Of a stretch of DNA of 64,000 nt, positions 25,408 through 64,000 are shown piece by piece. The position numbers were made by a program, and so were the translations under genes. How positions within the stretch are numbered: the first letter of the stretch is position 1; each line of letters opens with the position of its first letter. Source of the DNA: Curvularia clavata (taxonomy: Eukaryota); NCBI GenBank assembly GCA_023920165.1, contig CP089280.1, positions 2,666,001-2,730,000 on the forward strand. The letters are read 5' to 3'. The notes below the pieces were generated by a model, which worked only from the letters and a program-made list of their open reading frames with translations, made no database searches and had not been told where the DNA came from.

Positions 25408-25509
25408 AGAGGTCCCAGTTGAAGTACATGCGATACCGATGTAGATAGGGTATTTGTATTACTAAATCAGAGGACTTTGTGAAACTATTCAACATAGCGA
25501 AAGGCCAAG

Positions 25510-27363: not shown

Positions 27364-27572
27364 TGTCAGGATCTGGCCCAAATTGGATCAGTTTGGTCCT
27401 GTTCCCTCCTTCTCTACGCTAGTTAGTCAGCTAGGGCTTACTTAAGGATATAAAGCCTTCATAATCGCTAGAGGCACTCGATAGCGATTCGTCTCGTGAA
27501 TACATGGCTGTTAACGCATAACTCTCTCCCATCTATCTCGTGCTGTACCTTTATCCTACTAACAGTCTAACA
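27364..27572. repeat. Solo LTR of family B, inverted
   Basis: Reverse-complement match to 39902-40110, 209 bp. ACTAC TSD. Confidence 0.93.
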
Positions 27573-41769: not shown

Positions 41770-42057
41770 GGGTGGTTGGGTCTAGTTTTGTCCGTTTTGG
41801 CCCAAATTGGGTCAGTATGGGCTATGGTGGTTTTCTTCCCTTTCATATGAGATACCCAGGGCATTAGGATGGAGGTGATAATTGAAATTCTCTTTTCTTT
41901 ACTTTTCCATTCCTTGGTTTTTGTTGTGCAATGTCAGTTCAACATGGACCAATTTGGGCCAGGTTGCCCTAATCAGCTTATGCCGTTAAACACCTATAAA
42001 ACCCTTTGGGGAAAAAAGTAGGTGAAGGTACATGTGCTAATTTGGCTCCTATTGGCC

Positions 42058-45000: not shown

Positions 45001-45790
45001 CGTGGTGCCTTCTTTCAAGGTTATCACCAAATCGTGCGGGCCATGCTCAGCAAGGCACTTGGCATCCTCTTCCGAGGCCAAATCCGCAAAGTCCTCGTAC
45101 TGTGGTGGCAACTGAGGCAACTTGGCTTGATCAGGGCCAACCTGGGCGTTCTTGGGCTTCTCCAACCCCTCCCAGTCCTCTTCCTCGTCGCTTGGGTCCC
45201 AACCCATCACAGTGGACACTTTGAGCGCGTAAACGTCCGTCGTGGGCGTTCGGAGTGTTTTCTCAAACTCTTCGGCGCTTTCTGTCGCGATTTTCTCATA
45301 TGAAGCCCTATCTACATATTTCACGCCCCTAAATAGCACTCGACGCGACCGGAGGCTTATTTTGGGCTTGTAGAAGTCGACCCAGGGCATACCTAAGCAT
45401 ACTGGGTAATGCTTCATTTCTGTCACCACAAAAGGTATATTCTGGACTTTAGTCCTCCCTCTTGTGTCTGTGACTTTCATGGTCACCTCTGTAGTGCCAT
45501 AAATCTCAAACTCCGCGCCGCTTAAGGCTTCTGCCACTAAGTTCGGTATAGGAGTTATTGTTAAATCGTGATCCTTGGCTTGGTGGATTGAGAGTAGATT
45601 TAGTTGAGACCCTCCATCTATCAGCGCTTCGAGTGGATCTTGGCCAATTTGCACCGTTATGGTCAATAGTGGGCTAGGTTTGCTGAACATTGCTTCGCGA
45701 AGTGTCTTCAAGTCCTCTTCTAGCTCTAGCCTTGCAATATGGGCGGAGAGTAGGGCTACTAGGTTCTCCGCCCCTTGCCTTTTTCCAGTT
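42058..45790 (-). CDS. pol: Gypsy pol (protease, RT, RNase H, integrase, chromodomain), probably via a -1 frameshift from gag
   Basis: ALIDGGS, YLDD, VDAS, HHCC zinc finger, MDFI..SDRG..TER, YLVKWTGYPDSENTWEP. The pol frame overlaps the gag end in the -1 frame at GGAAAAAG. Confidence 0.95.
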
Positions 45791-46991
45791 TGGGTTCCTC
45801 AGGTGCCGCTTGGCTTTGTTTGTGCTTACTACAGTTCCTGCTGATGTGTCCGGGTTCCCCGCAGTTGTAACAGACAATTTTGCCCTCTGCGTCGCGTCCT
45901 CGAACCTTGTTTGCCGCGTATGAACCTTTTGTATCCGCAGGGTTCCGTCTTTGTTTTTTCAGGGTTTTTTCGTACCCTCTTGTGTTCTTTGGTGGTGTGC
46001 CGCTCCTGGCTTGCTTGTTCTGCGTTGTTCTAGCGTTGCTAGGCTTCTCTCTTTTCGTTCTGTCCCAGATAAGTCGCGCTCGCGCGTTTAGGTCTGAGAT
46101 TGTGCTTCTTTGACCTGGTTCGAGTAAAAGCAACTCTTTCTGTATTGTCATTGTCAAAGCGCCCATAAAGTCCCTCACTCTCTGCTCTTCCGAGTAGGAA
46201 TTGCCCAATTCGGACCAAAGTGTGTCCAATTTGGCCAACAGGTCGTTTGGGTCCTGAGACCAGTCCTGTCTGATGTGTTTGAGAGCTCGGTGGGCTTCAA
46301 GCTTCCGCTGTTCTGGTGGTCCCAGTGAATCCACCATTACAGTCTTCAGGTCTAGCCACGTGGGTGTCCAATTCGTGTCTTTTCTACAGTAGTCGTGATA
46401 ATAGGCGTCCCATGTGGAGCGTAGGGGGTCAGTGATATACCTAAGCCCAAAATCGATCTTGACTGCCTCTGTTTGGAACGTTTTAGGGCTTCCCCTAAAC
46501 GTTGCCTCACATTCGCGTTCCCAGCGATTGTACTCGGCACGATCGCGGCTTGTGAACTGTGTTGGTTTTTCTGGTCGTGGAGCTCCCACGTTTGGTTCTA
46601 GTTGTATCCCCACCGCACGGTGTGGTTCATATAGGTCCTCTGTCAGTGCTGTCGTGTCACCTTGGTCGAACCGACGCTTGATTTCCTGGAGACGTTTCAG
46701 TTCTTGCTCGTCAAGCGCTCGTTGCCTCCAAGCGCGCAGTTCGTCTAGCTGTTGAGCAATGGTGGTCTGAGGTGGTTCAAGTCGAGCTGGGCTGCCCTGA
46801 ATTGGGCTTCTCTGTGCCAGTTCGGCCTGATCTGCCTCCGTGACGGCAGGCTCGGATAGTTCACTTGAAGATGGCTGGGTTGAGTCTCTAGTTAGAGTGG
46901 GCTGTGAGTCCCCTACTACCGTGTTTCGAGTTGACCTTGGGCGGCTCCGAGTTTGGCGACTACCTGGGTTCGGCATGGCTCTCTCTGACAT
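45759..46991 (-). CDS. gag: Gypsy gag
   Basis: 410-aa ORF after the 5' LTR, with zinc knuckle CYNCGEPGHISRNC. Confidence 0.93.
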   Translation of the reverse strand: MSERAMPNPGSRQTRSRPRSTRNTVVGDSQPTLTRDSTQPSSSELSEPAVTEADQAELAQRSPIQGSPARLEPPQTTIAQQLDELRAWRQRALDEQELKRLQEIKRRFDQGDTTALTEDLYEPHRAVGIQLEPNVGAPRPEKPTQFTSRDRAEYNRWERECEATFRGSPKTFQTEAVKIDFGLRYITDPLRSTWDAYYHDYCRKDTNWTPTWLDLKTVMVDSLGPPEQRKLEAHRALKHIRQDWSQDPNDLLAKLDTLWSELGNSYSEEQRVRDFMGALTMTIQKELLLLEPGQRSTISDLNARARLIWDRTKREKPSNARTTQNKQARSGTPPKNTRGYEKTLKKQRRNPADTKGSYAANKVRGRDAEGKIVCYNCGEPGHISRNCSKHKQSQAAPEEPKLEKGKGRRT

Positions 46992-47232
46992 CTCGTAGGT
47001 GTACTTGAGGAGAGCGATTCGAATGTTAGACTGTTAGTGGCGTGAAGGTACAGCACGAGATAGATGAGAGAGAACTATGCTTTAACAGCCATGTATTCAC
47101 GAGACGAATCGCTATCGAGCACCTCTAGCGATCGTGGAGGCTTTATAGCCTTAGGTAAGCCCTAGCTGACTAACTAGCGTGAAGAAGGAGGGAATTGGAC
47201 CGGCATGTCCCAATTTGGACCAGGTCCTGACA

Positions 47233-47315
47233 TAAGCTAGTCAGCTAATCTACAGTATCTGGGTGCGTACTTCTATACCCAGAATCAACTTAGTCTATAG
47301 TCGATCTGTCAAGAC
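47233..47315 (+). repeat. Fragment of a Copia LTR (same family as 49273), the target of the hAT insertion; it resumes at 63985-64000
   Basis: Reverse complement of the LTR end (taagctagtcagc...gtcaagac|tataatcg), with one mismatch. Confidence 0.93.
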
Positions 47316-47344
47316 TAGACTGGTAAATGGGTATGGGGCACCCG

Positions 47345-47575
47345 GCTCGGGTTGGGGTAGGGCTTGGGGCTATAGAGACTCGGGCTGGGGTAGGGCTGGG
47401 GCTGCTAAGAGTCGGGCTGGGGTAGGGCTGGGGCTGCTAAGAGTCGGGCTGGGGTAGGGCTAGGGCTGCTAAGAGTCGGGCTGGGGCAGGGCTGGGTTGC
47501 TTGGCACTTGGGCTGGGGTAGGGCTGGGTTACTAAAGAGTTAGGTAGGGGTAGGGCTGGGTATAGCCTGCCCAGC
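47345..47575 (+). repeat. hAT left subterminal G-rich tandem repeats (~32-bp unit gggctggggtagggctggggctgctaagagtc)
   Basis: Visible tandem array; related repeats occur at 63710-63970. Confidence 0.9.
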
Positions 47576-47699
47576 TAGATTACAAATAACTTTAGGCTAG
47601 AAAAGATTCGAATTTATTATAGTTTATTATTATAGTAGCTTTAAAAAGAACTTTAAGATAAAACTAATAGGATTTATTACAGTTGACTATTACGGTAGC

Positions 47700-49272
47700 G
47701 CGCAGGGCAGACACGCTTTCGTGGAGGAAGTGGTAACTCGTCCTCTACCTTATCCACTTCCTCTAGAGATTCTTCTATATCCTGACTCTGATATTAACTC
47801 CTACACTCCTCTATATCTGCTGGGAGCTTAAACAAATTACTAATATTATTAGAAAGTTGGATAGCTTTCTCTATAGGCTCGTCTAAGTCTCTATTAAGAC
47901 TCTCTATTTTATTAGAATTTGCAAATTTAAGAATTATAAGTTGTTGAATTTTTTTAGTAGAAAGCTAATGTCGACGATTGCTAATAACTTCTTTAGTAAT
48001 ACTAAAGACTCTCTCTACACTTATTTACGCAATTGGTATAGCTAGAATATCTTTTATAACTTGGGTAAGATAGGGGTATATAATCTTACTTGCTTTCTAT
48101 CACTCTAAGATATTAATATATTTCCATAAATTAATACTAGAGCTGGTTAGATATAGCTCTCTTTTTTAATAAGTTGGCCCTCTACTCTTTTTAATTTTCT
48201 AGCTTGAAGAATCTTAGTTTAAAAGAGAAATCTGGTTTGATTGTAATTGAAGTAAAGTAGGCCTTCAAAACTATTCTATGCTTAATACTCTCTAAGGAAA
48301 TAAGCTTAGTATTAACTATATAATTTCTTAATTATTATATTAAGCTAGATAATTAAGAAACTACTACTAGTAGATATACTTATCTTAAAACTCCTATATC
48401 TTATTCTATATCTTCTATTAGTATCTATCTGTAATAAATATCTGTAATAATACCTTGTAAGCTATAAGCTTTTACATTAGATCAAGAATCATCACGCAGT
48501 TGAATAAGAAGCCACGCTCTTTATCAGTTTTCGAGTAGTATTTACTCAACTTTACCCTCCCTTTCGCCGCCACAGCTCTCACCACTTATAGCCAGTTGCT
48601 ATTCTCTAAGTCTTCTCCTAAATCAACCTCCATCTAATTAAGAAAATTAAAAAGCTAATTATACATAAGCCAGATATATAGTATTTGAGGTTTTCGACTC
48701 TGACTTAGAGACATTATTGCAGTCTTAAAATGGCTAAGCATTTCAGTAACCATCTCAAGATACGACCATTCTTGTGCAGATAGTCGTAGTCTCTTAAGAT
48801 CCCAAGAATTAATATCAGTATTATTATCGGCCTCTGAGAGATTTTCAGTATGGATAGGAACCCTTAACGCGATCTCATCTTTAAGCCATTCATCGATATA
48901 TTGCCGAAGCTTAACTACGCGCTCACACATATTATATGTCGAGTTCCATCATATTCTAACATCACAGATAACACTAAGACGTTTTTTTAGTAGTAGATCC
49001 CGTTATATTGCGAGAAACCGTTCGTATCGCTAAAGAGATAAGTCAACTATAATACAGATTGCTCTAATCTATATTGTAGTTAGTATGTGATAAATAACTA
49101 TAATAAAAAATTCTTCTCTTGCGAAGTGAATTAGGGACTAAGATATTGGCATCTACTTCATTAATCTGTTATCTCTACAAATCTTATATATTATCTAACT
49201 CAGTAGAAGCTAATAGCCTTAAGTACTAGATAATATCCTAGACAACGAGGTTGATAATATAGGCTAAGTAGA
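47700..49272 (-). pseudogene. hAT transposase, C-terminal part (RIP-degraded)
   Basis: LAYIINLVV (decayed CxxH region), VR..WNSTYNMCERVVKLR, and the dimerisation motif YPYLTQVIKDILAIPIA.ISVERVFS..NRRH.LS. Confidence 0.9.
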
Positions 49273-49634
49273 TGTTGAAGTAATAGGTGGCTGCTAGTAC
49301 TACTAGTAGTAGACTTAGACAGCCTGATCGAGAGACTCTAGATAGACGAGAGATTGCTAGGGGAGAGAGTTAATAGATACAATTGATTTTGTATAAACTG
49401 CTCTGGTTTTTATCTACTAGCTATTCTACTACTATATATATTGGCTGGAGTAGATTCTAGAAGAATCTATCTAGTAGTAGCTTGCGTAATCTTTGGCGTC
49501 ATAGACAGATGTCTATAGATCGATTATAGTCTTGACAGATCGACTATAGACTAAGTTGATTCTGGGTATAGGAGTACGCACCCAGATACTGTAGATTAGC
49601 TGACTAGCTTAGATCTACAACACGCCCCCTTAAG

Positions 49635-51428
49635 CTAGGAAGCTGTAATTTGGGATATATCTACTAGATTTGCTCCAAGTAGAAAGTCTCGAGTCTTGTC
49701 GGCGCTTGTAGCCTTAGTGAGACTGTCGGCTAGTAGACAGCTAGTGTTTTGATATACTAGCTGGATCTGTTTGGTCTCTACCTTCTCACGGATAAAGTAG
49801 TATTGGATATCGATGTGTTTTGTCCTAGCGTGATAGGTAGGATTTTTGGTGAGTTGGATTGCACTTTGGCTGTCTGAGTAGACAGTAGTAGCTGTCTTGT
49901 CTATGTCTGGCAGTATTGGATATAGAGCTTTAATCTCTTTGATAAACTGGGTGAGATATAAGCTCTGTTTAACTGCTTCTCGGTAGGCCATGAATTCAGC
50001 TTCTGCGCTTGATAGTGCTACTGTCGGCTGTAGTTTTGACAGCCAAGAAATCGCGCAGTTGCTCTTGTTTGACTGGAGTAAAAATATGTATCCAGTGGTA
50101 GATCTTCTACTGTCAAAGTCACCCCCCCAATCTGCATCCGTAGATCCAATCAGTTTAATCAGATCTAAGTTATTTGGTGCAGATTGACTGCTTTTGATGC
50201 TGTTTTGGTTATCAGTACTGAGCTGATAGAGTAGTCCTAGCTGTCTTGACTGAGCTAGATATCCCCATAGGTAGTCTAGACTGCTGAAATGCTCGGTGCT
50301 CGGATTGGCCATGAATCTGGATAGAAGATTGACTGCGTAGGTAATATCCGGCCGAGTAAAAATGGATAGATAGATGAGAGAGCCAATTTGCTGCTGGTAC
50401 ATATTGGTGGCGTTTGGAGTAGCCGTTTGGCTGTTTCTGTTGAGCTTGATATTCTGTTGCAGTGGAGTCTGTCTTGGCTTAATATCTTGCTTATTGAATC
50501 TAGCAAGTAGCCTTTGTAGATAGTTTTCTTGGGTAATATAGATCGCTCGTCTAGATCTAATTACTTGGACTCCAAGAAACTCTGAGACGTCGCCTAGATC
50601 TTTGATCTCAAGCTTTGAGATAGCTGTTAGGTCTTTGAATAGCTTTTGAATACTTTGCTCTTGTTCTCCAAAAATAAGCAAGTCGTCTACGTGAGTAGCT
50701 ATAACAAGCTTCTGCTCGACATTGATATAAGTGGCAGTGTCAATAAACAGAGATTTGAAGCCTAGTTGTCCGAGTAGGCTTGCTAGTAGTTTCTGCCACT
50801 GTCTACTGGCTTGTTTTAGCCCGTATAGAGCCTTGTTAAGCAAGCAGACGTGCTGTGGATAGTGCTGATCTTGAAATCCTTCTGGCTGCTCGACGTATAT
50901 AGTCGTGTCGATTAAAGCATTTGGGAAAGCTTGCTTGACATCCCAGCTTTTTATATGCCAGTTTTGAGCTGCTGAAATGGCTAGTAGTAGCCGGATTAGA
51001 TCAGGCCGAGTAGTATTGGCAAATGTCTCGTAGTAGTTGACTCCAAGCTCTTGTTGAAAGCCTTTCGCTACCCAACGTGCTTTGAATATAAAATCGCCAT
51101 TTTGCTGGTATTTTTTGTTAAGTACCCAGCGGCCTTTGAGAACTGGATATTCGGACGGTCTTGGTACAAGCTTCCAAGTGTCGTTCTTTTGCAGCTGGTC
51201 TAGCTCGTTTTGCATAGCTAATAGATAGTGTTGACTGTCTTGGTGCTGTAGCACTTGAGCGTAGCTTTTTGGATCAGTGATATCCTTTGAAGTAAATAAG
51301 ACTTCTTCTAGGATAATGTCCTCTGCTGCTATTTCTGGTGGAGCTTTTTGATTAGTGGATAGAGCTAATTCTGCTGGCTTGGCTTTCTTTTTGATCAAAA
51401 CAATCGGATTTCTTCCAACTACTCTCAT
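49635..51428 (-). CDS. Copia RT-RNase H (copy 1)
   Basis: KARWVAKGF, WDVKQAF, LYGLKQAS, HVDD, TDADW, SSAEAE, KHIDIQY. Confidence 0.93.
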   Translation of the reverse strand: MRVVGRNPIVLIKKKAKPAELALSTNQKAPPEIAAEDIILEEVLFTSKDITDPKSYAQVLQHQDSQHYLLAMQNELDQLQKNDTWKLVPRPSEYPVLKGRWVLNKKYQQNGDFIFKARWVAKGFQQELGVNYYETFANTTRPDLIRLLLAISAAQNWHIKSWDVKQAFPNALIDTTIYVEQPEGFQDQHYPQHVCLLNKALYGLKQASRQWQKLLASLLGQLGFKSLFIDTATYINVEQKLVIATHVDDLLIFGEQEQSIQKLFKDLTAISKLEIKDLGDVSEFLGVQVIRSRRAIYITQENYLQRLLARFNKQDIKPRQTPLQQNIKLNRNSQTATPNATNMYQQQIGSLIYLSIFTRPDITYAVNLLSRFMANPSTEHFSSLDYLWGYLAQSRQLGLLYQLSTDNQNSIKSSQSAPNNLDLIKLIGSTDADWGGDFDSRRSTTGYIFLLQSNKSNCAISWLSKLQPTVALSSAEAEFMAYREAVKQSLYLTQFIKEIKALYPILPDIDKTATTVYSDSQSAIQLTKNPTYHARTKHIDIQYYFIREKVETKQIQLVYQNTSCLLADSLTKATSADKTRDFLLGANLVDISQITAS

Positions 51429-51456
51429 GGAGTTGGCTGGTGGATTTGACTGGCTA

Positions 51457-51540
51457 GTATTTGGCTCAGTATTTGGCTCAGTATTTGGCTCAGTATTTGG
51501 CTCAGTATTTGGCTCAGCATTTGGCTCAGTATTTGGCTCT
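51457..51540. repeat. 12-bp tandem repeat (gtatttggctca x7) encoding an EPNT linker; also at 56396-56479
   Basis: Directly visible. Confidence 0.9.
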
Positions 51541-51569
51541 TCGTCAAGCTGCAGTTCTTCATCAGGAGC

Positions 51570-53830
51570 TTAATCATTGAACACTCCTTCTAGTATTTGG
51601 ACGTCTCTTGCAGTAGTAACCTTGTTAGTTCTAATATCGATTAGACGATATAGATTTTTACTAATATATCCAACAAGGTAGTACTGCTGGACACGAGAAT
51701 CTAGTTTGCCAAGAAACTCTTTTGGCTCTTTCTTGTATGCTAGAGATCCCCAGATTCTAACATTGCTGACGTCTGGTTTATATCCATATTTGGCTTCAAA
51801 TGGCGTCTTAAAGCCAATAGAGCTGTGCGGTGTTCTATTGTATAGATACACTGCCGCTAGTAGAGCTTCTGCCCACAGCTTATTAGGCATTTTGGCTTCA
51901 AATAGCAGAGCTCTTATCTTGTCAAATAACGTTCGGTTGATCCGCTCGGCTCCGCCTTTGCCTTCTGGATTGAATGGGGAGTTGAAAAAATCGGAGTTTA
52001 AATCCCTTTCTAGTAGCTAGCTTTTGCAGCTCTAGCGTGTCCAACTCATTGTCTGATTGGATAGCTTTGATCTGCTTTGAGTCTTGGACTTCTGCTTTCT
52101 TAACAAAAGCTTTGACTGGCTTGACTAGCTCTGATCTAGACGTGAGTAAGTCCACTTCTAGATATTTGGTGTAGTAGTCTAGAAAGGTAATATAATACCG
52201 ATAGCCCTTATTCGTCTTTGGCTTAATCGGCCCCCCTAGGTCGCAGTAGATCAAATCACCAAACTGGTGGACTGGTGTAGATATTGGATCTCTGCTTATT
52301 TTGCTAGCAAATTTGCTTCTCAAGCAAATCTCGCAGTTGCTAAATCCACTGCTGGTTTTGGTATTTGATTTGACGCCTTTGGTATTCTCACTTAGCTTAT
52401 TTAAGCTAGTTTTACCAATATGGCCAAAACGTCGGTGTAGAAGAGACGTTTGATCGTCTGGCTTAGACTGATCTGTTTGATTCGGTTGGACGGATTTGGC
52501 TGTCAGCTCTGTATTGTATGTCTCTGTATAGACTTGGCTAGTTTGGATATTGCTAACTGCAGTAAAAGTAGCAATATTTCTAGCGTATTGCCCCTTCGCT
52601 AGTATTTTGCTAGATAGCCTAATTAGGCTGCTAGTCTTTGAAAACTCGAATTCAGCTCCTTTTTGAACTGCTTGGTAGAGACTGAGTAGATTGACTTTGA
52701 AGTCCGGCACTAGTAAGACTTCTTTGAGTACTACTGTCTCGCCCGTACTCGTAAATTTAATTGGCACTTCGCCTTTGGCTGTTGCTTGTAGCAACGCAGT
52801 AGAGTTGCCCCATTTAATATACGTATTACTAACGCTGGTAAGGCTTCTAAAAAGCTGTCGGTCAGAGCAAATATGGGAGCTGGCGGCGCTGTCTAATATC
52901 CACTCAATCGACTTGGAAGACTCAGTGGATAGAGCAGCTTTGATATCGGCGATATTTGGATCGACTGAGACTACTGTAGATAGAGCTGTCTCAGGCTTAT
53001 AATATGTCCGACTGGGGCGTTTGCTGGGGTCTTTCTGCCAGCATTGGTCGACTAAATGTCCATTTCTCTTGCAGTGAGAGCAGTATTTTGGACTTTTGGT
53101 GGATTTTTGAGTAGCCAAAGTCATTTCGACGTCTTTTGACTGTGGAGCTTGGTTGGAGCTGCTAATTGGGCTCCTTTGGTATGGTCTGTAGCTCTTTTGG
53201 TAAGAGCTATTTGAGTTACTGCCGCTGCTGCTTCTAATCGATTTCTGGCGTCTTGATTCGTCCATAATTTGGTTGTATAAGTTCTCAAGATCAATCTCTT
53301 TGTTAGATCTAAAATCTTGAGTAATAGCTGTAACCAAATAGTCAAAGTCTGAGCTTAGATTATTGAGAATCAAAGCAGCAATGAATCGGTGCGGTAGTGC
53401 CAGATTTCGGCTCTCTAGACTAAGGACTAGTCTGTTGATTTTTTTGGAGATATATTTCGACGTTGTTTTGGCACTGCTGCACGGTCGTATTGATAAGATC
53501 TTTGCAAATTAAGAAGTCAGAGCTAAAGCCTTTTGGGCTATATAGCTTCTTTAGGTGATTCCATAGACTATATGGAGTTTTCATGTCTTTTGACTGTAGT
53601 AGAGGCCCATCGTCTAGACTGAGTCGTAGAGTAGACAGAGCTTTGATTTCTGAGCTTTTTAGCTTCTGATATCTCTCAGAGCCTTTACTTTGTTCAAGCT
53701 CTTGTGGGTCGACTGTTATAATCTCGTAGCAGTCTTGCTGTATAAGCACTGCTTCGATCCGTAGTGCCCACATGTCATAGTTAGAGCTGCCTTTGAGCTT
53801 TGGCACTCTAAATATGCTACTGTCAGCCAT
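51570..53830 (-). pseudogene. Copia gag-protease-integrase (copy 1), two frameshifts relative to copy 2
   Basis: Matches 56509-58764 except for indels at ~51975-51990 and ~53440 (homopolymers). Confidence 0.85.
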
Positions 53831-54573
53831 TTTGTGCTGCTAGTCTGTCTAGAAATATAGACTAGATAGCTGTTTGTAGTCTAGCGCAGTAAATAAGCAG
53901 TTACTGTTCTTACTATGAAGAACTCTGGCTGCTAGTCGATCGAGTTGATCTGTCTGCAACTAGCTACAAGAAGCTTCGGCTAACCCCTAACCAGAGTATT
54001 TAGCTGCGTTTGCGGCTCAGAGACTCCTAAACTGATAGGGTTTTTGCTTCAGTAGAGTTTCTCAGCTTTTTAGCCGTGGTTTACTCTTAACCCTTAGTAA
54101 CCCTAGCTTTTACTAAGAGACTAGCTATATTTATACTAGCTCTTACTTTAGTCTTATGCTAAGACTTGCTAGAATCTTCGATCGATAGACACGTAATCCG
54201 GGCTCATAACCTGTTGAAGTAATAGGTGGCTGCTAGTACTACTAGTAGTAGACTTAGACAGCCTGATCGAGAGACTCTAGATAGACGAGAGATTGCTAGG
54301 GGAGAGAGTTAATAGATACAATTGATTTTGTATAAACTGCTCTGGTTTTTATCTACTAGCTATTCTACTACTATATATATTGGCTGGAGTAGATTCTAGA
54401 AGAATCTATCTAGTAGTAGCTTGCGTAATCTTTGGCGTCATAGACAGATGTCTATAGATCGATTATAGTCTTGACAGATCGACTATAGACTAAGTTGATT
54501 CTGGGTATAGGAGTACGCACCCAGATACTGTAGATTAGCTGACTAGCTTAGATCTACAACACGCCCCCTTAAG

Positions 54574-56367
54574 CTAGGAAGCTGTAATTTGGGATATATC
54601 TACTAGATTTGCTCCAAGTAGAAAGTCTCGAGTCTTGTCGGCGCTTGTAGCCTTAGTGAGACTGTCGGCTAGTAGACAGCTAGTGTTTTGATATACTAGC
54701 TGGATCTGTTTGGTCTCTACCTTCTCACGGATAAAGTAGTATTGGATATCGATGTGTTTTGTCCTAGCGTGATAGGTAGGATTTTTGGTGAGTTGGATTG
54801 CACTTTGGCTGTCTGAGTAGACAGTAGTAGCTGTCTTGTCTATGTCTGGCAGTATTGGATATAGAGCTTTAATCTCTTTGATAAACTGGGTGAGATATAA
54901 GCTCTGTTTAACTGCTTCTCGGTAGGCCATGAATTCAGCTTCTGCGCTTGATAGTGCTACTGTCGGCTGTAGTTTTGACAGCCAAGAAATCGCGCAGTTG
55001 CTCTTGTTTGACTGGAGTAAAAATATGTATCCAGTGGTAGATCTTCTACTGTCAAAGTCACCCCCCCAATCTGCATCCGTAGATCCAATCAGTTTAATCA
55101 GATCTAAGTTATTTGGTGCAGATTGACTGCTTTTGATGCTGTTTTGGTTATCAGTACTGAGCTGATAGAGTAGTCCTAGCTGTCTTGACTGAGCTAGATA
55201 TCCCCATAGGTAGTCTAGACTGCTGAAATGCTCGGTGCTCGGATTGGCCATGAATCTGGATAGAAGATTGACTGCGTAGGTAATATCCGGCCGAGTAAAA
55301 ATGGATAGATAGATGAGAGAGCCAATTTGCTGCTGGTACATATTGGTGGCGTTTGGAGTAGCCGTTTGGCTGTTTCTGTTGAGCTTGATATTCTGTTGCA
55401 GTGGAGTCTGTCTTGGCTTAATATCTTGCTTATTGAATCTAGCAAGTAGCCTTTGTAGATAGTTTTCTTGGGTAATATAGATCGCTCGTCTAGATCTAAT
55501 TACTTGGACTCCAAGAAACTCTGAGACGTCGCCTAGATCTTTGATCTCAAGCTTTGAGATAGCTGTTAGGTCTTTGAATAGCTTTTGAATACTTTGCTCT
55601 TGTTCTCCAAAAATAAGCAAGTCGTCTACGTGAGTAGCTATAACAAGCTTCTGCTCGACATTGATATAAGTGGCAGTGTCAATAAACAGAGATTTGAAGC
55701 CTAGTTGTCCGAGTAGGCTTGCTAGTAGTTTCTGCCACTGTCTACTGGCTTGTTTTAGCCCGTATAGAGCCTTGTTAAGCAAGCAGACGTGCTGTGGATA
55801 GTGCTGATCTTGAAATCCTTCTGGCTGCTCGACGTATATAGTCGTGTCGATTAAAGCATTTGGGAAAGCTTGCTTGACATCCCAGCTTTTTATATGCCAG
55901 TTTTGAGCTGCTGAAATGGCTAGTAGTAGCCGGATTAGATCAGGCCGAGTAGTATTGGCAAATGTCTCGTAGTAGTTGACTCCAAGCTCTTGTTGAAAGC
56001 CTTTCGCTACCCAACGTGCTTTGAATATAAAATCGCCATTTTGCTGGTATTTTTTGTTAAGTACCCAGCGGCCTTTGAGAACTGGATATTCGGACGGTCT
56101 TGGTACAAGCTTCCAAGTGTCGTTCTTTTGCAGCTGGTCTAGCTCGTTTTGCATAGCTAATAGATAGTGTTGACTGTCTTGGTGCTGTAGCACTTGAGCG
56201 TAGCTTTTTGGATCAGTGATATCCTTTGAAGTAAATAAGACTTCTTCTAGGATAATGTCCTCTGCTGCTATTTCTGGTGGAGCTTTTTGATTAGTGGATA
56301 GAGCTAATTCTGCTGGCTTGGCTTTCTTTTTGATCAAAACAATCGGATTTCTTCCAACTACTCTCAT
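54574..56367 (-). CDS. Copia RT-RNase H (copy 2)
   Basis: Same protein as copy 1. Confidence 0.93.
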   Translation of the reverse strand: MRVVGRNPIVLIKKKAKPAELALSTNQKAPPEIAAEDIILEEVLFTSKDITDPKSYAQVLQHQDSQHYLLAMQNELDQLQKNDTWKLVPRPSEYPVLKGRWVLNKKYQQNGDFIFKARWVAKGFQQELGVNYYETFANTTRPDLIRLLLAISAAQNWHIKSWDVKQAFPNALIDTTIYVEQPEGFQDQHYPQHVCLLNKALYGLKQASRQWQKLLASLLGQLGFKSLFIDTATYINVEQKLVIATHVDDLLIFGEQEQSIQKLFKDLTAISKLEIKDLGDVSEFLGVQVIRSRRAIYITQENYLQRLLARFNKQDIKPRQTPLQQNIKLNRNSQTATPNATNMYQQQIGSLIYLSIFTRPDITYAVNLLSRFMANPSTEHFSSLDYLWGYLAQSRQLGLLYQLSTDNQNSIKSSQSAPNNLDLIKLIGSTDADWGGDFDSRRSTTGYIFLLQSNKSNCAISWLSKLQPTVALSSAEAEFMAYREAVKQSLYLTQFIKEIKALYPILPDIDKTATTVYSDSQSAIQLTKNPTYHARTKHIDIQYYFIREKVETKQIQLVYQNTSCLLADSLTKATSADKTRDFLLGANLVDISQITAS

Positions 56368-56508
56368 GGAGTTGGCTGGTGGATTTGACTGGCTAGTATT
56401 TGGCTCAGTATTTGGCTCAGTATTTGGCTCAGTATTTGGCTCAGTATTTGGCTCAGCATTTGGCTCAGTATTTGGCTCTTCGTCAAGCTGCAGTTCTTCA
56501 TCAGGAGC

Positions 56509-58764
56509 TTAATCATTGAACACTCCTTCTAGTATTTGGACGTCTCTTGCAGTAGTAACCTTGTTAGTTCTAATATCGATTAGACGATATAGATTTTTAC
56601 TAATATATCCAACAAGGTAGTACTGCTGGACACGAGAATCTAGTTTGCCAAGAAACTCTTTTGGCTCTTTCTTGTATGCTAGAGATCCCCAGATTCTAAC
56701 ATTGCTGACGTCTGGTTTATATCCATATTTGGCTTCAAATGGCGTCTTAAAGCCAATAGAGCTGTGCGGTGTTCTATTGTATAGATACACTGCCGCTAGT
56801 AGAGCTTCTGCCCACAGCTTATTAGGCATTTTGGCTTCAAATAGCAGAGCTCTTATCTTGTCAAATAACGTTCGGTTGATCCGCTCGGCTCCGCCTTTGC
56901 CTTCTGGATTGAATGGGGGAGTAAATCGGAGTTTAAATCCCTTTCTAGTAGCTAGCTTTTGCAGCTCTAGCGTGTCCAACTCATTGTCTGATTGGATAGC
57001 TTTGATCTGCTTTGAGTCTTGGACTTCTGCTTTCTTAACAAAAGCTTTGACTGGCTTGACTAGCTCTGATCTAGACGTGAGTAAGTCCACTTCTAGATAT
57101 TTGGTGTAGTAGTCTAGAAAGGTAATATAATACCGATAGCCCTTATTCGTCTTTGGCTTAATCGGCCCCCCTAGGTCGCAGTAGATCAAATCACCAAACT
57201 GGTGGACTGGTGTAGATATTGGATCTCTGCTTATTTTGCTAGCAAATTTGCTTCTCAAGCAAATCTCGCAGTTGCTAAATCCACTGCTGGTTTTGGTATT
57301 TGATTTGACGCCTTTGGTATTCTCACTTAGCTTATTTAAGCTAGTTTTACCAATATGGCCAAAACGTCGGTGTAGAAGAGACGTTTGATCGTCTGGCTTA
57401 GACTGATCTGTTTGATTCGGTTGGACGGATTTGGCTGTCAGCTCTGTATTGTATGTCTCTGTATAGACTTGGCTAGTTTGGATATTGCTAACTGCAGTAA
57501 AAGTAGCAATATTTCTAGCGTATTGCCCCTTCGCTAGTATTTTGCTAGATAGCCTAATTAGGCTGCTAGTCTTTGAAAACTCGAATTCAGCTCCTTTTTG
57601 AACTGCTTGGTAGAGACTGAGTAGATTGACTTTGAAGTCCGGCACTAGTAAGACTTCTTTGAGTACTACTGTCTCGCCCGTACTCGTAAATTTAATTGGC
57701 ACTTCGCCTTTGGCTGTTGCTTGTAGCAACGCAGTAGAGTTGCCCCATTTAATATACGTATTACTAACGCTGGTAAGGCTTCTAAAAAGCTGTCGGTCAG
57801 AGCAAATATGGGAGCTGGCGGCGCTGTCTAATATCCACTCAATCGACTTGGAAGACTCAGTGGATAGAGCAGCTTTGATATCGGCGATATTTGGATCGAC
57901 TGAGACTACTGTAGATAGAGCTGTCTCAGGCTTATAATATGTCCGACTGGGGCGTTTGCTGGGGTCTTTCTGCCAGCATTGGTCGACTAAATGTCCATTT
58001 CTCTTGCAGTGAGAGCAGTATTTTGGACTTTTGGTGGATTTTTGAGTAGCCAAAGTCATTTCGACGTCTTTTGACTGTGGAGCTTGGTTGGAGCTGCTAA
58101 TTGGGCTCCTTTGGTATGGTCTGTAGCTCTTTTGGTAAGAGCTATTTGAGTTACTGCCGCTGCTGCTTCTAATCGATTTCTGGCGTCTTGATTCGTCCAT
58201 AATTTGGTTGTATAAGTTCTCAAGATCAATCTCTTTGTTAGATCTAAAATCTTGAGTAATAGCTGTAACCAAATAGTCAAAGTCTGAGCTTAGATTATTG
58301 AGAATCAAAGCAGCAATGAATCGGTGCGGTAGTGCCAGATTTCGGCTCTCTAGACTAAGGACTAGTCTGTTGATTTTTTGGAGATATATTTCGACGTTGT
58401 TTTGGCACTGCTGCACGGTCGTATTGATAAGATCTTTGCAAATTAAGAAGTCAGAGCTAAAGCCTTTTGGGCTATATAGCTTCTTTAGGTGATTCCATAG
58501 ACTATATGGAGTTTTCATGTCTTTTGACTGTAGTAGAGGCCCATCGTCTAGACTGAGTCGTAGAGTAGACAGAGCTTTGATTTCTGAGCTTTTTAGCTTC
58601 TGATATCTCTCAGAGCCTTTACTTTGTTCAAGCTCTTGTGGGTCGACTGTTATAATCTCGTAGCAGTCTTGCTGTATAAGCACTGCTTCGATCCGTAGTG
58701 CCCACATGTCATAGTTAGAGCTGCCTTTGAGCTTTGGCACTCTAAATATGCTACTGTCAGCCAT
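56509..58764 (-). CDS. Copia gag-protease-integrase (copy 2)
   Basis: CSHCKRNGHLVDQC knuckle, WILDSAAS protease, HRRFGH..CEIC, YCDL..QSDN..AER integrase. Confidence 0.93.
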   Translation of the reverse strand: MADSSIFRVPKLKGSSNYDMWALRIEAVLIQQDCYEIITVDPQELEQSKGSERYQKLKSSEIKALSTLRLSLDDGPLLQSKDMKTPYSLWNHLKKLYSPKGFSSDFLICKDLINTTVQQCQNNVEIYLQKINRLVLSLESRNLALPHRFIAALILNNLSSDFDYLVTAITQDFRSNKEIDLENLYNQIMDESRRQKSIRSSSGSNSNSSYQKSYRPYQRSPISSSNQAPQSKDVEMTLATQKSTKSPKYCSHCKRNGHLVDQCWQKDPSKRPSRTYYKPETALSTVVSVDPNIADIKAALSTESSKSIEWILDSAASSHICSDRQLFRSLTSVSNTYIKWGNSTALLQATAKGEVPIKFTSTGETVVLKEVLLVPDFKVNLLSLYQAVQKGAEFEFSKTSSLIRLSSKILAKGQYARNIATFTAVSNIQTSQVYTETYNTELTAKSVQPNQTDQSKPDDQTSLLHRRFGHIGKTSLNKLSENTKGVKSNTKTSSGFSNCEICLRSKFASKISRDPISTPVHQFGDLIYCDLGGPIKPKTNKGYRYYITFLDYYTKYLEVDLLTSRSELVKPVKAFVKKAEVQDSKQIKAIQSDNELDTLELQKLATRKGFKLRFTPPFNPEGKGGAERINRTLFDKIRALLFEAKMPNKLWAEALLAAVYLYNRTPHSSIGFKTPFEAKYGYKPDVSNVRIWGSLAYKKEPKEFLGKLDSRVQQYYLVGYISKNLYRLIDIRTNKVTTARDVQILEGVFND

Positions 58765-59495
58765 TTTGTGCTGCTAGTCTGTCTAGAAATATAGACTAGA
58801 TAGCTGTTTGTAGTCTAGCGCAGTAAATAAGCAGTTACTGTTCTTACTATGAAGAACTCTGGCTGCTAGTCGATCGAGTTGATCTGTCTGCAACTAGCTA
58901 CAAGAAGCTTCGGCTAACCCCTAACCAGAGTATTTAGCTGCGTTTGCGGCTCAGAGACTCCTAAACTGATAGGGTTTTTGCTTCAGTAGAGTTTCTCAGC
59001 TTTTTAGCCGTGGTTTACTCTTAACCCTTAGTAACCCTAGCTTTTACTAAGAGACTAGCTATATTTATACTAGCTCTTACTTTAGTCTTATGCTAAGACT
59101 TGCTAGAATCTTCGATCGATAGACACGTAATCCGGGCTCATAACCTGTTGAAGTAATAGGTGGCTGCTAGTACTACTAGTAGTAGACTTAGACAGCCTGA
59201 TCGAGAGACTCTAGATAGACGAGAGATTGCTAGGGGAGAGAGTTAATAGATACAATTGATTTTGTATAAACTGCTCTGGTTTTTATCTACTAGCTATTCT
59301 ACTACTATATATATTGGCTGGAGTAGATTCTAGAAGAATCTATCTAGTAGTAGCTTGCGTAATCTTTGGCGTCATAGACAGATGTCTATAGATCGATTAT
59401 AGTCTTGACAGATCGACTATAGACTAAGTTGATTCTGGGTATAGGAGTACGCACCCAGATACTGTAGATTAGCTGACTAGCTTAGATCTACAACA

Positions 59496-60560
59496 GTAGA
59501 GAATAGTATTTTTACTTAGACTCCAGCTTATACCAAGTTATTATAGACCTTACTGAAGAGACTATATAAGAGTGCTATTATTACTAGCATTATTACAAGT
59601 AATAGATAGCAGTTTTTTTTAGAGTTCACTCCTAGAAAGAAGTTTCAGAACTTCATCTGCTATTAAAGCTCTAGTATGTCTCCCACAGATCGGTATAAAA
59701 TCCAAAAGCTTTTCTTTAAGTTACCATTAAGTATTAATATAGTAACCTTTGATTACAAGAAAACTAAGATAGTTACTTAAAGCCTAACTATCTAATGCAA
59801 GTGATATTTTTATTTCTTAGCCAAGATCATTAAAAAGCTCAGCTAAAGCCTTCTCAAATTGTAACTCAAACGCTAGCTTAAATTTATAACGGCTAATAAT
59901 CACAGCGTTAGGCTAGAGAAACTAGAGAAATCGTTAAAATGATAGCCGCTCAAATGTTCGGAAGCTCCAGTAGTTATCAACTACTACTCTTACTAGTTCT
60001 TATTCATATATCTCAGTTAAGTAGGCTAGTATTACGCGAGGATTAATATTTATTAGCGGTAAGATACTTTAGCAGAGTGAGTTCAATAGCTTATTGTGTA
60101 TAGGCGAAGAGATAAGCTAGCAAGTCTAGGTTTGACGATGTCTATAAAGATGCTTTATACCAATATTTCCAGCTGATAGGTGCGCGAGTATATAACTGCA
60201 GTTCGAGCAGAAGATATATAGACAGCCAGTTAGGACCTCTACAGCCTCTCCAAAGTTTGCCCAGATTTGGCTCGTACGACAAGAAGAGCCCCAGTATAGA
60301 ACTGGCTTCGAAGGATCTCAGGCCCATAGTATTTTATTCTACCACTCCTTCCAGTTTGAAATAATCGCTTTATTCTCTTTATTACTATTATTTTTAAGTA
60401 CTAGATACTAGACGAGTATAAGTATAACTTTAAAACCACCTTTATCTCAGTATAGAGCATTCATCTTAAAATGCGTAAGGATATCTAGCAGTTCTATAGA
60501 AGGCTCAGCCATTATAAAGATTATACCTATAATAAATAACTATAATAAATCAAAGTTACT
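59496..60560 (-). pseudogene. hAT transposase, N-terminal part (BED finger plus catalytic start), RIP-degraded
   Basis: TSQIWANF..IFCSNCSYILAH..GIKHLYRH, KISLALD, GRHT, LLSITC.NASNN. The frame continues across the Copia TSD into the C-terminal part. Confidence 0.88.
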
Positions 60561-60779
60561 AGATAGACAAATATCATCTGTAGAAAACTAGATATAATAG
60601 GAAGTTCTAAGTCCTCTAGCTTCTAGCATAGCTAAGATTGTCTAAAACACTAGTGTTGTTTAACATATATCTAAAGTAGGTTTTATATAAGAGAAAGTTT
60701 AGATCAATACAGGGGTTATACTATAATTATTAGCTAGAATAAACCCTAGCATAATACTCTAAACTCTAACTACTAGAGT

Positions 60780-62006
60780 ATTATTAGAGATATACTTAGA
60801 CAGCCAGCACTACTTAGACTTCTCTTCTTCAGCCTCTTCATCTTAATCCTCAGCCTCCTCTACCTTAGTACTATCAGCCCCCTCTAGAGCCAAAAAGCTA
60901 TCGTCACTACTATAGCCATCCTCATCCTCGTCTATAATCTCATCCTCGTCATCAACCTCTTCTTCACACTCATTACTATTATAGCCCTCAATATATAGCT
61001 TATTATCCTCAAAACGCGTATCTAGATCAAACTAGTTAAAAATAAAAATAGACTCTTCTTATCTATACTAGTTAGTCCTTAAATATAATAATAAACTATA
61101 ATAAACTTACTACTAGAAACTATCTATAGCAAGTTCTTTTTTCTTAGAAGAAAGATTCTCGCAAAACTTAAGCCACTCATCTCGTACTTACTCGCTCTCA
61201 AAGGCGTTATTATTTAGCTTAGCCAATCCTCAAAGATATTCTTTGCGTATAAGTAAGTCAACAACCCCCTTTCGACCATAGAAACGAGCAGAAACGCGTA
61301 ACCCCTTAGTAGAGGTATCAGACGAGGCGTCGCTAGAGGTAGTCTAGAGAATAAGCTAATGCCGTCTTTTGTCGATCTCATTCTAGATCTTAGACCATTT
61401 CGCGTACACAGCTTAGAAAGCAAACGCCATCCAATTAGCTAATAACTATTAGTAGATATCTATAATAAAAGACTATAATAACTTACCACTTCGCTTTTCT
61501 TTAAAGCGCTTAGATTTATACTCCTCAAGATAGCTCTTTATAATCCTATTCTTCTTATCCTCTCCGGCAGTCTTATACCATTCTTTCTCTTTAAGTAACT
61601 TAAGAAATTTCGCCCAAGCAGCGCAGTCAGCATCTTTAGCGCGTTGGAGAGCGGCTTCTTCCTCAGTACGTGACGCGGCGAGATCTCTCTATGCAATAGC
61701 TTGAGCTATATTACTAAGCTGACCTTGATATTAGACTCGCAGACTAGTTGGACAACCTTTTTAGAAACCTCCAGATCTATATTGCGCAATAATAAAATTA
61801 ATCTCATCTTACTCATTTTTAAAGCCCTACTAACGTTAGTATTTATTATAATAATAGACTAGAATTATTACTTTAGTAAGATCTACCCACTCCTACTTAG
61901 TAAAGTTCTTAGGTATTTGGGCAACGCGTGGAGGTGCTAGACCCTCAGATACGTCGCCATCAGCCTCTATTATAGACTCGCGCTTGATTTCTAGCGTACG
62001 CGGCAT
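60780..62006 (-). pseudogene. RIP-degraded multi-exon cargo gene with a strongly acidic C-terminal tract; unknown function
   Basis: ATG 62006 MPRTLEIKRES..; helical middle (..AAWAKFLKLLKEKEWYK..); tail ECEEEVDDEDEIIDEDEDGYSSDD..EEAED.DEEAEEE. GT-AG introns. 3' end is approximate. Confidence 0.65.
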
Positions 62007-62530
62007 TGTTAACTATAATAAAGTACTAATATAACGTCTAGTATAGTAAAAATAGGGAGAGAGAGGATGGTTACTAAGAGAGAGTAGGAAGTTTAGTAAT
62101 AGTCTACCTATTAAGGTAATTAGGGGTCCGTGCGCCCTAGATTTCGCGCTAGCGTTAGGCTAGCAAACAATATCTTTCATACAGCCAATATCTTAGATAA
62201 TAAAAGTTAGAGCGCTTTAATTTTAGTCTTATTTGAAAGCCCTAGAGTAGCTCTATCTAATAAGCCAGTTATCACAGTATTTAATCACTGCTTCGTTAAG
62301 TTATAGCGATTTCTTGCTAACTATCTTATAGACCCTTAGCAAGACCCTGGGTAATCCGTGTACTCACCTTCACCTTCACCTTCACCTACTCATATATCCC
62401 TAAAATTCTCAACTACTCTATAGCTAAGTATTTATCCACCAATCCTCTTAATCTAAATCTAACTTTCCCAGCCCAACGCCAAATTTCTCAACTCAACCCT
62501 ACTAGTTATCACAGAGATTTATCACGTACT

Positions 62531-63499
62531 ATGTTAGCAGTAGACGAGGTAGGGGGGCCAGACGATAAGTCGTTTGAGGAGATGGCAGAACGGTTAAATA
62601 TACTCCCGTCGCCTAAAAGACAGATATCTCAGCTGCTGTCACCTCGCAAATCAGAAGCTCTTAAAGACGAATTTGAGGTTTTAGGAGCTCAGATAACTAG
62701 CAATCCTACTTTTTCTACTAAAAGTAGCTAACCAAATCTATAAGTTTATCACAGTAATTTATCACAGAAAATAGCTAACAAATACTAGAACTACTACTTA
62801 CAATTATCCCTCCCCGCCCCATATCTCGACTAGTGGCTATCTTGCATCTTTTGCGTACGTTTATCACGGTAATTTATTACAAGTAATAGCTAACTAATAG
62901 TAGGACTGGCACTATATTCCATAGTATAGGTAGCAAAACCGCTCGTAAGCAGCCAGTCAATCATAGGCCGCCCACGCCTAAGCCCGACAATAAAAATCAA
63001 GAGTCGGAAAGCAGCAAAGAAGACAAGTCCGGCCCTCCTACACCGCCCAGTGCTCAACCATCTACGTCTGGCGCCTCTAAGAGGCGCAGGTTTAAGCCTA
63101 GCAGTAAGTTTATCACAGTTATTTATCACAGCAAGCGACTAATAATTACTAGCTATTACACTAAAAGAGATCAAAAGATTCCAGAAGTCTACTAATCTAC
63201 TCATTCCAAAGACTCGATTTATAAAACTTATTAAAAAGATTATAGAAGACGTATATCCGCAACACCCTCTACGTATCCAAAAAGAGACGTTGGAAGGTCT
63301 TCAAGAGGCTACTAAGTATTTCTTAGTTAGATTTCTTAAAGATATATTATATTATCACAGATATTAATCACAGCTACTAACAGATCTAGAATATAACATA
63401 AACGCTATCCATACTAAGAGAGTTACTATTCAGAAGAAGGATGGGGATCTTGTCAAGCACTATCTTAACAGGCTTGGCATAGGTGGTATTAAGTACTGA
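62531..63499 (+). pseudogene. Histone H3-like cargo gene (5 exons, RIP-damaged)
   Basis: Exons 62901-63103, 63153-63341 and 63390-63499 give ..GSKTARKQP..KRRRFKPSTITLKEIKRFQKSTNLLIPK..LRIQKETLEGLQEATKYFLVRFLKEYNINAIHTKRVTIQKKD, which aligns with the H3 histone fold. Two donors are mutated GT>AT. Confidence 0.9.
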
Positions 63500-63709
63500 G
63501 GGCTTTCATAATAGAGTATTAAGTACTAATAGCTTTTATAATTAAAAGATAGCCATAATTAAAAACTAGCTATATACTAGAAGTCAAATAAAAGTTTTAT
63601 AAGTTCTTAATTTTTAATTTACTACTATAATAATTATGCATAATAAGTCTTTAATATATACAGAGTATATATATATCTAATAACTAAGACCCAGCATAAC
63701 CTAGTACTA

Positions 63710-63970
63710 AGCAACCCAGCCCTACCCCAGCCCGCTTATTAAGCAACCCAGCCCTACCCCTACCCAACTCTTGACTAACCCAGCCCTGCCCCTACCCAAC
63801 TTAAATGCCAAGAGTTGGGTAGAAGCAGGGCTAGGTTGCCTAATAAGCGGGCTGGGGTAGGGCTAGGTTAGCCAAGAGTTGGGTAGGGGCAGGGCTGGGT
63901 TGCTTAGTCATCTAACCCAGCCCTACCCCTACCCAACTCTTAGCAGCCCTGCCCCAGCCCTGCCCCAGCC
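63710..63970. repeat. hAT right subterminal repeats (cccagccctacccc) in both orientations
   Basis: Reverse complements of the left array, with an internal inverted block at ~63810-63905. Confidence 0.9.
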
Positions 63971-64000
63971 CATTTACCAGTCTAGTCAAGACTATAATCG

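What the first reader, a model, noticed from the sequence alone, without database searches (positions are those of the whole stretch)
60780..62530. Acidic-tail cargo gene head-to-head with the H3-like gene
Seen: a second multi-exon gene (ATG 62006, minus strand) diverges from the H3-like ATG (62531) across ~520 bp and ends in a long D/E tract. Established: acidic tracts typify histone chaperones and histone-binding proteins, and fungal histone genes often share divergent promoters. Inference: the element encodes a three-part module of transposase, histone variant and partner/chaperone.
Basis: inference. Interest (0 to 1): 0.7.

Follow-up and report, generated by a model that had tools for sequence, protein, structure and literature searches.

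The report
Transposon-carried partner of a histone variant
This is a mutation-killed copy of a gene that a known family of fungal jumping genes carries next to its own histone H3 variant, and a structure prediction made with intact relatives suggests the gene is that histone's chaperone, a role it had not been given in the papers I found.

Summary
In detail: a 4-exon minus-strand gene (ATG 62006, introns 45/48/48 nt, acidic tail) lies 524 bp from the H3-like ATG inside a hAT transposon (47316-63984). All six genomic copies are killed by RIP; this one has 15 premature stops.

The three-gene layout is published: it is the 'central ORF of unknown function' of the Pyrenophora tritici-repentis H3L-hAT element (Manning 2013). 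Five of five Ptr locus tags sit beside an H3L gene.

Not found in print: (1) the ORF is a wide family (124 clusters) under purifying selection, and a metagenomic element keeps the same layout and intron lengths; (2) a paired TTATCAC word marks introns, start regions and ends; (3) intact relatives pass a complex prediction with H3L-H4 (0.82, best control 0.18; mark reached by 51 of 78 solved and 2 of 108 mismatched pairs). The predicted site is the groove that DNAJC9 uses, bound by an exon-3 helix rather than the acidic tail.

Best reading: a transposon-encoded H3L-H4 chaperone (about 0.6). This is predicted only, the score may come from likeness to solved complexes, and preference for H3L over host H3 is untested.

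The parts
47316..63984 (.). Whole hAT element (about 6.45 kb without the retrotransposon insert), with terminal inverted repeats beginning TAGACTGGTAAATGGG and an 8-bp target duplication GTCAAGAC
   Evidence: matching 8-bp duplications also flank copies C3 and C8; those of C5 and C6s do not match; C6e lacks its left end
60810..62006 (-). Central ORF (the finding), 4 exons, 351 codons to the shared TAG, RIP-dead
   Evidence: homologues
61872..62006 (-). Exon 1
61487..61826 (-). Exon 2: basic [RK]KGRP stretch (AT-hook-like, a recalled label; about 61760-61746, mutated here) and long helices
61111..61438 (-). Exon 3: holds the stretch equivalent to the predicted H3L-H4-binding helices (about 61304-61164)
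   Evidence: mapped to the window
60810..61062 (-). Exon 4: conserved KPY..G..SDECEEE block and acidic tail (28 D/E of 53); lacks the terminal FEGF motif found in many relatives
62007..62530 (.). 524-bp spacer between the two ATGs, with T[TA]ATCAC words pointing towards each gene (62021 minus in two other copies; 62269/62282 and 62506/62519 plus)
62531..63499 (+). H3-like gene (H3L), about 5 exons with a long non-canonical N-terminal part; histone fold about 63146-63490; RIP-damaged
   Evidence: Pfam PF00125 E 1.3e-11; exon borders read by eye
47695..60512 (-). hAT transposase gene downstream of the central ORF on the same strand, RIP-dead and split by the retrotransposon insert
   Evidence: PF05699 E 8e-11; tblastn with the L038 transposase
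49273..59495 (-). Tandem copia-like LTR retrotransposon (three LTRs) inserted into the transposase gene, 5-bp duplication GTAGA; not part of the module
   Evidence: the copia label is from recalled domain order

Best explanation
The gene is the conserved 'central ORF' of the Pleosporales H3L-hAT transposon family, here a dead copy. In live elements it most likely encodes a chaperone-like partner for the element's own H3 variant. Step 1 (shown): it is kept head-to-head with H3L inside the transposon over long distances and under purifying selection. Step 2 (predicted): an exon-3 helix pair lies along H3L helix alpha2 and H4 helix alpha3 of an H3L/host-H4 dimer, the groove used by DNAJC9 and HJURP, which would shield the dimer and block tetramer formation. 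Step 3 (inferred): the acidic tail adds charge shielding, and in many relatives a terminal FEGF motif may dock on a host chromatin or elongation factor. Step 4 (inferred, weakest): the variant is put into chromatin, most usefully the element's own, to keep it expressed or mobile against host silencing.
For: Orthology: the profile hits Ptr P0006 (E 1.5e-91) and the Ptr fusions with a hAT dimerisation domain that Manning described. Linkage: 5 of 5 PTRG tags are adjacent to H3L tags in Manning's Table S10, each on the 5' side of H3L. The complete metagenomic element L038 has the same order and orientation and the same 45/48/48-nt introns. Selection: L038 against L039, pS 0.80 (saturated) and pN 0.33 over 341 codons. 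No copy outside the six elements in this genome. Complex: Ptr ORF + P. teres H3L + host H4 scored 0.82 (runs 0.82, 0.79, 0.83), best of 3 controls 0.18; the mark was reached by 51 of 78 solved complexes and 2 of 108 mismatched pairs; on eukaryotes by 71 of 105 solved and 2 of 126 unrelated pairs; runs agree in at least 34% of contacts; partner pLDDT at least 55. The predicted site shares 10 of 12 H3 and 5 of 6 H4 residues with DNAJC9 helix alphaB (PMC8221569 section 9; mapping). R198 (80% conserved) touches the E105/D106 equivalents, as DNAJC9 R223/R227 do. Several of the surest contacts are H3L positions that differ from host H3 (F99, G102, Y103).
Against: Like complexes are solved (DNAJC9, HJURP), so the pass may reflect likeness rather than binding. 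No control used host H3, and the tool says close relatives of a partner can pass, so variant preference is untested. The three chains came from three organisms and my alignments were not used. Interface columns are no more conserved than the rest of the core (entropy 2.17 against 2.21, p = 0.31). The most conserved columns lie largely in exon 2, outside the predicted site. The 16-copy short Ptr element spreads H3L with a fusion that lacks exons 3-4, though long copies could supply the protein in trans. Neighbours are known for only two independent lineages besides this one (Ptr and L038/L037). Dhillon 2019 reports no such ORF in Mycosphaerellaceae H3-hATs. All six copies here were killed by RIP, so any protection is incomplete.
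Confidence: 0.6

Rival explanations
1. VANC-like sequence-specific anti-silencing factor: the protein binds the paired TTATCAC words in introns, spacer and ends, and so marks its own element. This can be combined with histone binding and would give H3L its address.
For: L038 has 28 T[TA]ATCAC words against 1.6 expected and 12 pairs at 13-bp spacing against 0 in 100 shuffles; the window element keeps 13 words and 5 pairs despite RIP; 25 kb of non-element window has 3 and 0. The pair is upstream of the Ptr H3L ATG and shows through intron-2 read-throughs of 11 family proteins. VANC21 motifs have the same kind of distribution (PMC5735166 passages). A basic [RK]KGRP stretch is among the most conserved columns.
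Against: No DNA-binding domain was recognised. The same 19-mer pair occurs in 7 copies of an unrelated pogo/Fot1-type transposon and 2 contig-end repeats, which fits a host factor equally well: the reverse strand reads TGATAA, a GATA-factor word (recalled).
Confidence: 0.2
2. Transposase accessory or chromatin tether: it binds ordinary host H3-H4 or nucleosomes, and in FEGF-bearing members a TFIIS-N-terminal-domain protein, to steer insertion; H3L has a separate role.
For: It lies just upstream of the transposase on the same strand. A helix, acidic linker and FEGF at the C-terminus resemble TND-interacting motifs (PMC9987994 passages); FEGF occurs in 7 of the 132 database proteins then held (many are fragments without a C-terminus) and twice in tandem in P0011 and L038. 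Host H3 was not tested.
Against: FEGF is missing in the window lineage and in Boeremia P0014. The review ties FxGF use to LEDGF/HRP2 and does not mention filamentous fungi. The head-to-head link is to H3L.
Confidence: 0.12
3. Poison-antidote pair: H3L is harmful to chromatin, and the central-ORF protein sequesters it, favouring nuclei that keep the element.
For: The predicted site would block H3L tetramer formation; the two genes stay tightly linked.
Against: Ptr carries 16 short copies with H3L but no full ORF, and H3L transcripts occur in several isolates. There is no evidence of drive.
Confidence: 0.06
4. Neutral captured host gene riding in the transposon.
For: Transduplication is the published reading of this element.
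Against: No host donor in this genome; purifying selection; intron lengths and motif shared with the other two genes.
Confidence: 0.02

Closest known systems
H3L-carrying hAT element of Pyrenophora tritici-repentis (Manning et al. 2013, PMC3538342; read as passages plus hits in 12 of 31 supplementary files)
   Same: hAT transposase + central ORF + H3L between TIRs. The ORF is homologous (37% identity of the window copy to P0006, E 5.7e-30). Same side of H3L. Same paired word before the H3L ATG.
   Different: The window copy is RIP-dead and about 6.45 kb against 5.6 kb. Its H3L has a much longer N-terminal part, and its ORF lacks the terminal FEGF. The passages I read give the ORF no function or family and do not note the motif.
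H3-capturing hATs of Mycosphaerellaceae (Dhillon et al. 2019, PMC6710886; read parts 1-3 of 7 and a term search)
   Same: hAT with H3-like cargo, 8-bp target duplication, killed by RIP.
   Different: 9.5-kb elements, said to show no nucleotide similarity to the Ptr element; no partner ORF reported; not tested here for the ORF.
DNAJC9 histone-binding domain / HJURP-Scm3 (PMC8221569, section 9 read whole)
   Same: Predicted binding groove along H3 alpha2 and H4 alpha3: 10 of 12 H3 and 5 of 6 H4 contact residues shared; paired arginines near E105/D106.
   Different: No J domain; no sequence likeness to the host's own DNAJC9 or Scm3 loci; encoded by a transposon; binding is predicted only.
VANDAL/VANC anti-silencing system of Arabidopsis (PMC5735166, passages)
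   Same: A DNA transposon with an extra conserved gene, and a short word arrayed in introns, intergenic and terminal regions.
   Different: Different transposon superfamily and kingdom; no homology seen; DNA binding and anti-silencing untested; the word is shared with an unrelated transposon.

Membership tests
Ptr-type H3L-hAT element | TIRs and 8-bp target duplication | tested here: met
Ptr-type H3L-hAT element | hAT dimerisation domain | tested here: met
   PF05699 E 8e-11
Ptr-type H3L-hAT element | H3-like gene distinct from host H3 | tested here: met
Ptr-type H3L-hAT element | Central ORF homologous to the Ptr one, between H3L and transposase | tested here: met
Histone chaperone (functional class) | Binds H3-H4 directly | tested here: inconclusive
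   prediction passes, 0.82 against best control 0.18 (51 of 78 solved, 2 of 108 mismatched reach the mark); like complexes are solved
Histone chaperone (functional class) | Shields or deposits histones without staying in the nucleosome | not testable with these tools
   needs solubility and assembly assays
Histone chaperone (functional class) | Acidic disordered region | tested here: met
   tails 34-45% D/E in 7 of 7 long homologues measured; low pLDDT there; a common, weak feature
Known chaperone families (DNAJC9, Scm3/HJURP and others in Pfam) | Sequence homology to the family | tested here: not met
   no such Pfam family among 16 members; family profile scores below 0 bits on the host DNAJC9 and Scm3 loci
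Known chaperone families (DNAJC9, Scm3/HJURP and others in Pfam) | Shared fold | tested here: inconclusive
   best Z 6.6-6.9, generic helices, rows mostly over residues 22-189; Foldseek nothing at E 0.001 or better
VANC-like anti-silencing protein | Short motif arrayed in non-coding parts of the element | tested here: met
VANC-like anti-silencing protein | Motif dense only in that transposon family | tested here: inconclusive
   multiple pairs only in H3L-hAT copies (15 of 41 genome hits), but single pairs in 7 pogo/Fot1-type copies and 2 other repeats
VANC-like anti-silencing protein | Protein binds the motif and lifts silencing | not testable with these tools
   needs gel shift, ChIP and methylation assays
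TND-interacting motif (TIM) | Helix, acidic linker and FxGF | tested here: inconclusive
   present in Ptr, Bipolaris, Alternaria, Stemphylium, P. seminiperda and L038 members; absent in the window lineage; binding not tested

The most novel reading that the evidence does not exclude
A fungal DNA transposon encodes its own chromatin pathway: a histone H3 variant, a dedicated chaperone of a new family that binds H3L-H4 in the DNAJC9/HJURP groove, and a DNA address (paired TTATCAC words in introns, start regions and ends) that directs the variant onto the element's own copies to resist silencing. Other transposons carrying the same word may ride on it.
Probability: 0.25. Interest if true: 0.9.

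Novelty: new variant of a known kind. Interest (0 to 1): 0.62.

Why it matters
Manning 2013 left open whether the amplified H3L does anything, and both papers treat it as captured cargo. A conserved partner with a residue-level binding prediction makes that question directly testable with naturally intact Ptr genes. If true, it is a transposon-encoded histone-variant/chaperone pair, a selfish counterpart of CENP-A/HJURP. My paper searches turned up no such report; they miss most subscription journals. The copy in this window is itself dead and does nothing now.

Tried and rejected
Family and fold searches: no Pfam family for the window's exon 4 or nearby frames (two of my three references there were out of frame). 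Among 16 aligned members the best hit was one Flp_N match at E 3.3e-4 in 1 member, taken as chance. No solved-structure sequence match. Fold searches gave only generic helices. Atlas searches gave no hit at 0.9 or above.

Origin ideas rejected: capture of the host H3-H4 divergent promoter (no blastn match at E 1 or better); descent from host DNAJC9 or Scm3.

Motif ideas: an RNA-only splicing signal was my first reading because the words follow the sense strand in the genes. I dropped it because they turn inward downstream of the genes. A transposase-binding site is weakened by its presence in an unrelated transposon.

Neighbourhood: the first metagenome scan found nothing (259 pattern hits, none confirmed). 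The DNA-pattern scan gave 4 loci; L039 and L040 are too short to show neighbours, and L037 is nearly the same element as L038. The H3L homologue search gave 6 proteins and no adjacent locus tags. Neighbours of the Bipolaris, Exserohilum, Alternaria, Stemphylium, Boeremia, P. teres, P. seminiperda and lichen homologues could not be seen.

Expression: no RNA holder listed on record.

Supplements: 19 of 31 files of PMC3538342 were not searched, and those of PMC6710886 were not opened; either may say more about the ORF or the motif.

The UniRef names 'AGC-kinase C-terminal' and 'DNA-pol-phi' were not reproduced by Pfam and are set aside.

Full report
**What is there.** The region is RIP-mutated fungal repeat DNA (TpA/ApT 1.4-1.7). 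It belongs to a hAT DNA transposon at 47316-63984 with inverted ends and an 8-bp target duplication. A hAT dimerisation domain and a histone fold are detected. A tandem LTR retrotransposon (49273-59495, 5-bp duplication) splits the transposase gene. Six copies occur in the genome. Over 4492 aligned bases they differ by 74-509 transitions and 0-14 transversions.

**The gene.** It runs from ATG 62006 through four exons, with introns of 45, 48 and 48 nt, to TAG 60812-60810 (351 codons). The window copy has 15 premature stops; at 14 of them another copy has CAA, CAG or CGA. The last 53 residues hold 28 D/E. The H3L ATG is 524 bp away on the other strand, and the transposase starts about 300 bp downstream on the same strand. 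Three of four laid sequencing runs (X3, X10, X12) hold versions that differ from the window mainly in the un-RIPped direction (X12: 122 A>G, 32 T>C, none reverse). One X12 contig lacks exactly intron 3. That is a single contig at depth 4.7 in a run only guessed to be RNA, and another X12 contig keeps the H3L introns. It supports the intron borders and is only a hint of expression.

**What it is.** The gene read through with X finds Exserohilum (64%) and Bipolaris (38%) proteins. Their profile finds a 354-aa Ptr protein with 29 cluster members, and Ptr fusions of its N-terminal part to a hAT dimerisation domain. Manning et al. [quoted passage not shown] Five PTRG tags appeared among the cluster members (04982, 03509, 11534, 08246, 00560). 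All five are adjacent to an H3L tag in their Table S10, on the 5' side of H3L. The layout is therefore known.

**How wide and how conserved.** An exhaustive profile search gives 124 clusters at 50% identity, 71 at E 1e-10 or better. Many are exon-sized pieces that break at the same intron positions. Named members are Pleosporales (three Pyrenophora species, Alternaria, Stemphylium, Bipolaris, Exserohilum, Boeremia), with weak hits to two lichen fungi (E 1.8e-5, and 2.3e-4 via a cluster mate). A pattern scan of metagenomes gave 4 loci. L038 is a complete 6.1-kb element with H3L, central ORF and transposase in the same arrangement, stops only in the introns of the ORF, and the same intron lengths. 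L037 is a partial copy of it; L039 and L040 are too short to show neighbours. Synonymous sites between L038 and L039 are saturated (pS 0.80) while pN is 0.33. No host copy exists in this genome outside the six elements. No Pfam family, solved sequence or specific fold matches. The better model is all-helical with a disordered acidic tail (pLDDT 75, pTM 0.56).

**Binding prediction.** Ptr ORF + P. teres H3L (residues 30-149) + host H4 scored 0.82 (0.82, 0.79, 0.83); the best of 3 controls scored 0.18. The mark was reached by 51 of 78 solved complexes and 2 of 108 mismatched pairs (eukaryotes: 71 of 105 and 2 of 126). The counts hold only roughly for a three-chain job. Runs agree in at least 34% of contacts and partner pLDDT is at least 55. 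The interface is ORF residues 196-220, 234-242 and 261-267, mostly exon 3 and not the tail. In canonical numbering (recalled, anchored on E105/D106 and the H4 C-terminus) it covers H3 87-109 and 127-135 and H4 76-97. That is 10 of 12 H3 and 5 of 6 H4 residues of DNAJC9 helix alphaB, a helix the paper says resembles HJURP alphaA and blocks tetramer formation. This gives a precise mechanism and also the main caveat, since the model may be recalling a solved groove. Against over-reading: interface columns are no more conserved than the rest of the core (p = 0.31), host H3 was not tested, and the short Ptr element lacks this region. In favour of variant preference, F99, G102 and F/Y103 are shared by H3L of this genome's copies (clearest in C6e), L038, Ptr and P. 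teres, differ from host H3, and are among the surest contacts. F99 also occurs in the host's CenH3-like gene.

**The DNA word.** T[TA]ATCAC, mostly in pairs 13 bp apart, sits in introns of all three genes, before the start codons and near the ends. L038 has 28 words against 1.6 expected and 12 pairs against 0; the window element keeps 13 and 5; non-element DNA has 3 and 0 in 25 kb. The words follow the sense strand in the genes and turn inward beyond them. The pair is present in Ptr and shows through 11 intron read-throughs. Of 41 genome-wide pairs (control pattern 8), 15 are in these elements, 7 in a pogo/Fot1-type transposon, 2 in a contig-end repeat and 17 scattered. The distribution resembles VANC targets, but the binder may be a host GATA factor (recalled). 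A search for the word with 'transposon' and 'fungus' listed 9 papers, none about it by title or abstract start.

**Earlier notes.** Two AI notes from other genomes report the same cassette, one also a repeated motif. I saw them after my own and do not count them as evidence.

**Papers seen.** PMC3538342: passages and supplement hits. PMC6710886: parts 1-3 of 7 and a term search. PMC8221569: passages and section 9. PMC9987994 and PMC5735166: passages. Others: search listings only.

**Verdict.** Real, dead here, and a member of a described transposon family. The function of this gene was open in the papers found, and the evidence now favours an H3L-H4 chaperone-like partner (about 0.6). The full anti-silencing pathway is about 0.25. 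Novelty: new variant of a known kind. Interest: 0.62.

Noticed in passing
G000 loci L043-L046, L049-L051 (for example L043:2243-4094): A 1.85-kb pogo/Fot1-type transposon (72-bp TIRs, DDE_1 E 8e-18) carries, about 80 bp inside the end downstream of its transposase, a 19-mer paired word matching intron 2 of the central ORF apart from RIP-type changes.
   Followed up: partly
L047:4001 and L048:4000 (near ends of contigs C4 and C5): A contig-end repeat also carries the same 19-mer; not identified.
   Followed up: no
window 49273-59495: Two copia-like retrotransposons in tandem share a middle LTR; 99.9% identical over 5.3 kb with identical outer LTRs and little RIP, so they are younger than the hAT they interrupt.
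   Followed up: partly
window 47233-47317 and beyond 63986: The hAT itself sits inside an inverted LTR of the same retrotransposon family, so the two have nested in each other in turn.
   Followed up: partly
window 61871-61827, 61486-61439, 61110-61063; L038: All three introns are multiples of 3 in both elements, and intron 2 is free of stops in several relatives (P0005, P0016, P0018, P0023, P0026). The 16-residue insertion Dhillon 2019 notes in one H3-like copy could be such a 48-nt intron (inference).
   Followed up: partly
window 62531-63100: H3L here has a long acidic, proline-rich N-terminal extension in place of a normal tail, unlike the short basic tails of Ptr and L038 H3L.
   Followed up: no
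L038:945-1631: The spacer between H3L and the central ORF is an imperfect inverted repeat (66% over 336 bp), as if the two promoters arose by duplication.
   Followed up: no
G000:C6:5115-5623 (L018): Copy C6s has a 512-bp insertion in exon 2 of the central ORF; C6s and C6e lie at opposite ends of contig C6 and differ by only 74 transitions.
   Followed up: no
window 9075-10758 and 15407-15837: A repeat also found directly beside hAT copy C3; not identified.
   Followed up: no
window 39902-47232 and 25497-27576: An element with about 210-bp direct ends, plus several solo-end-like copies in both orientations.
   Followed up: no
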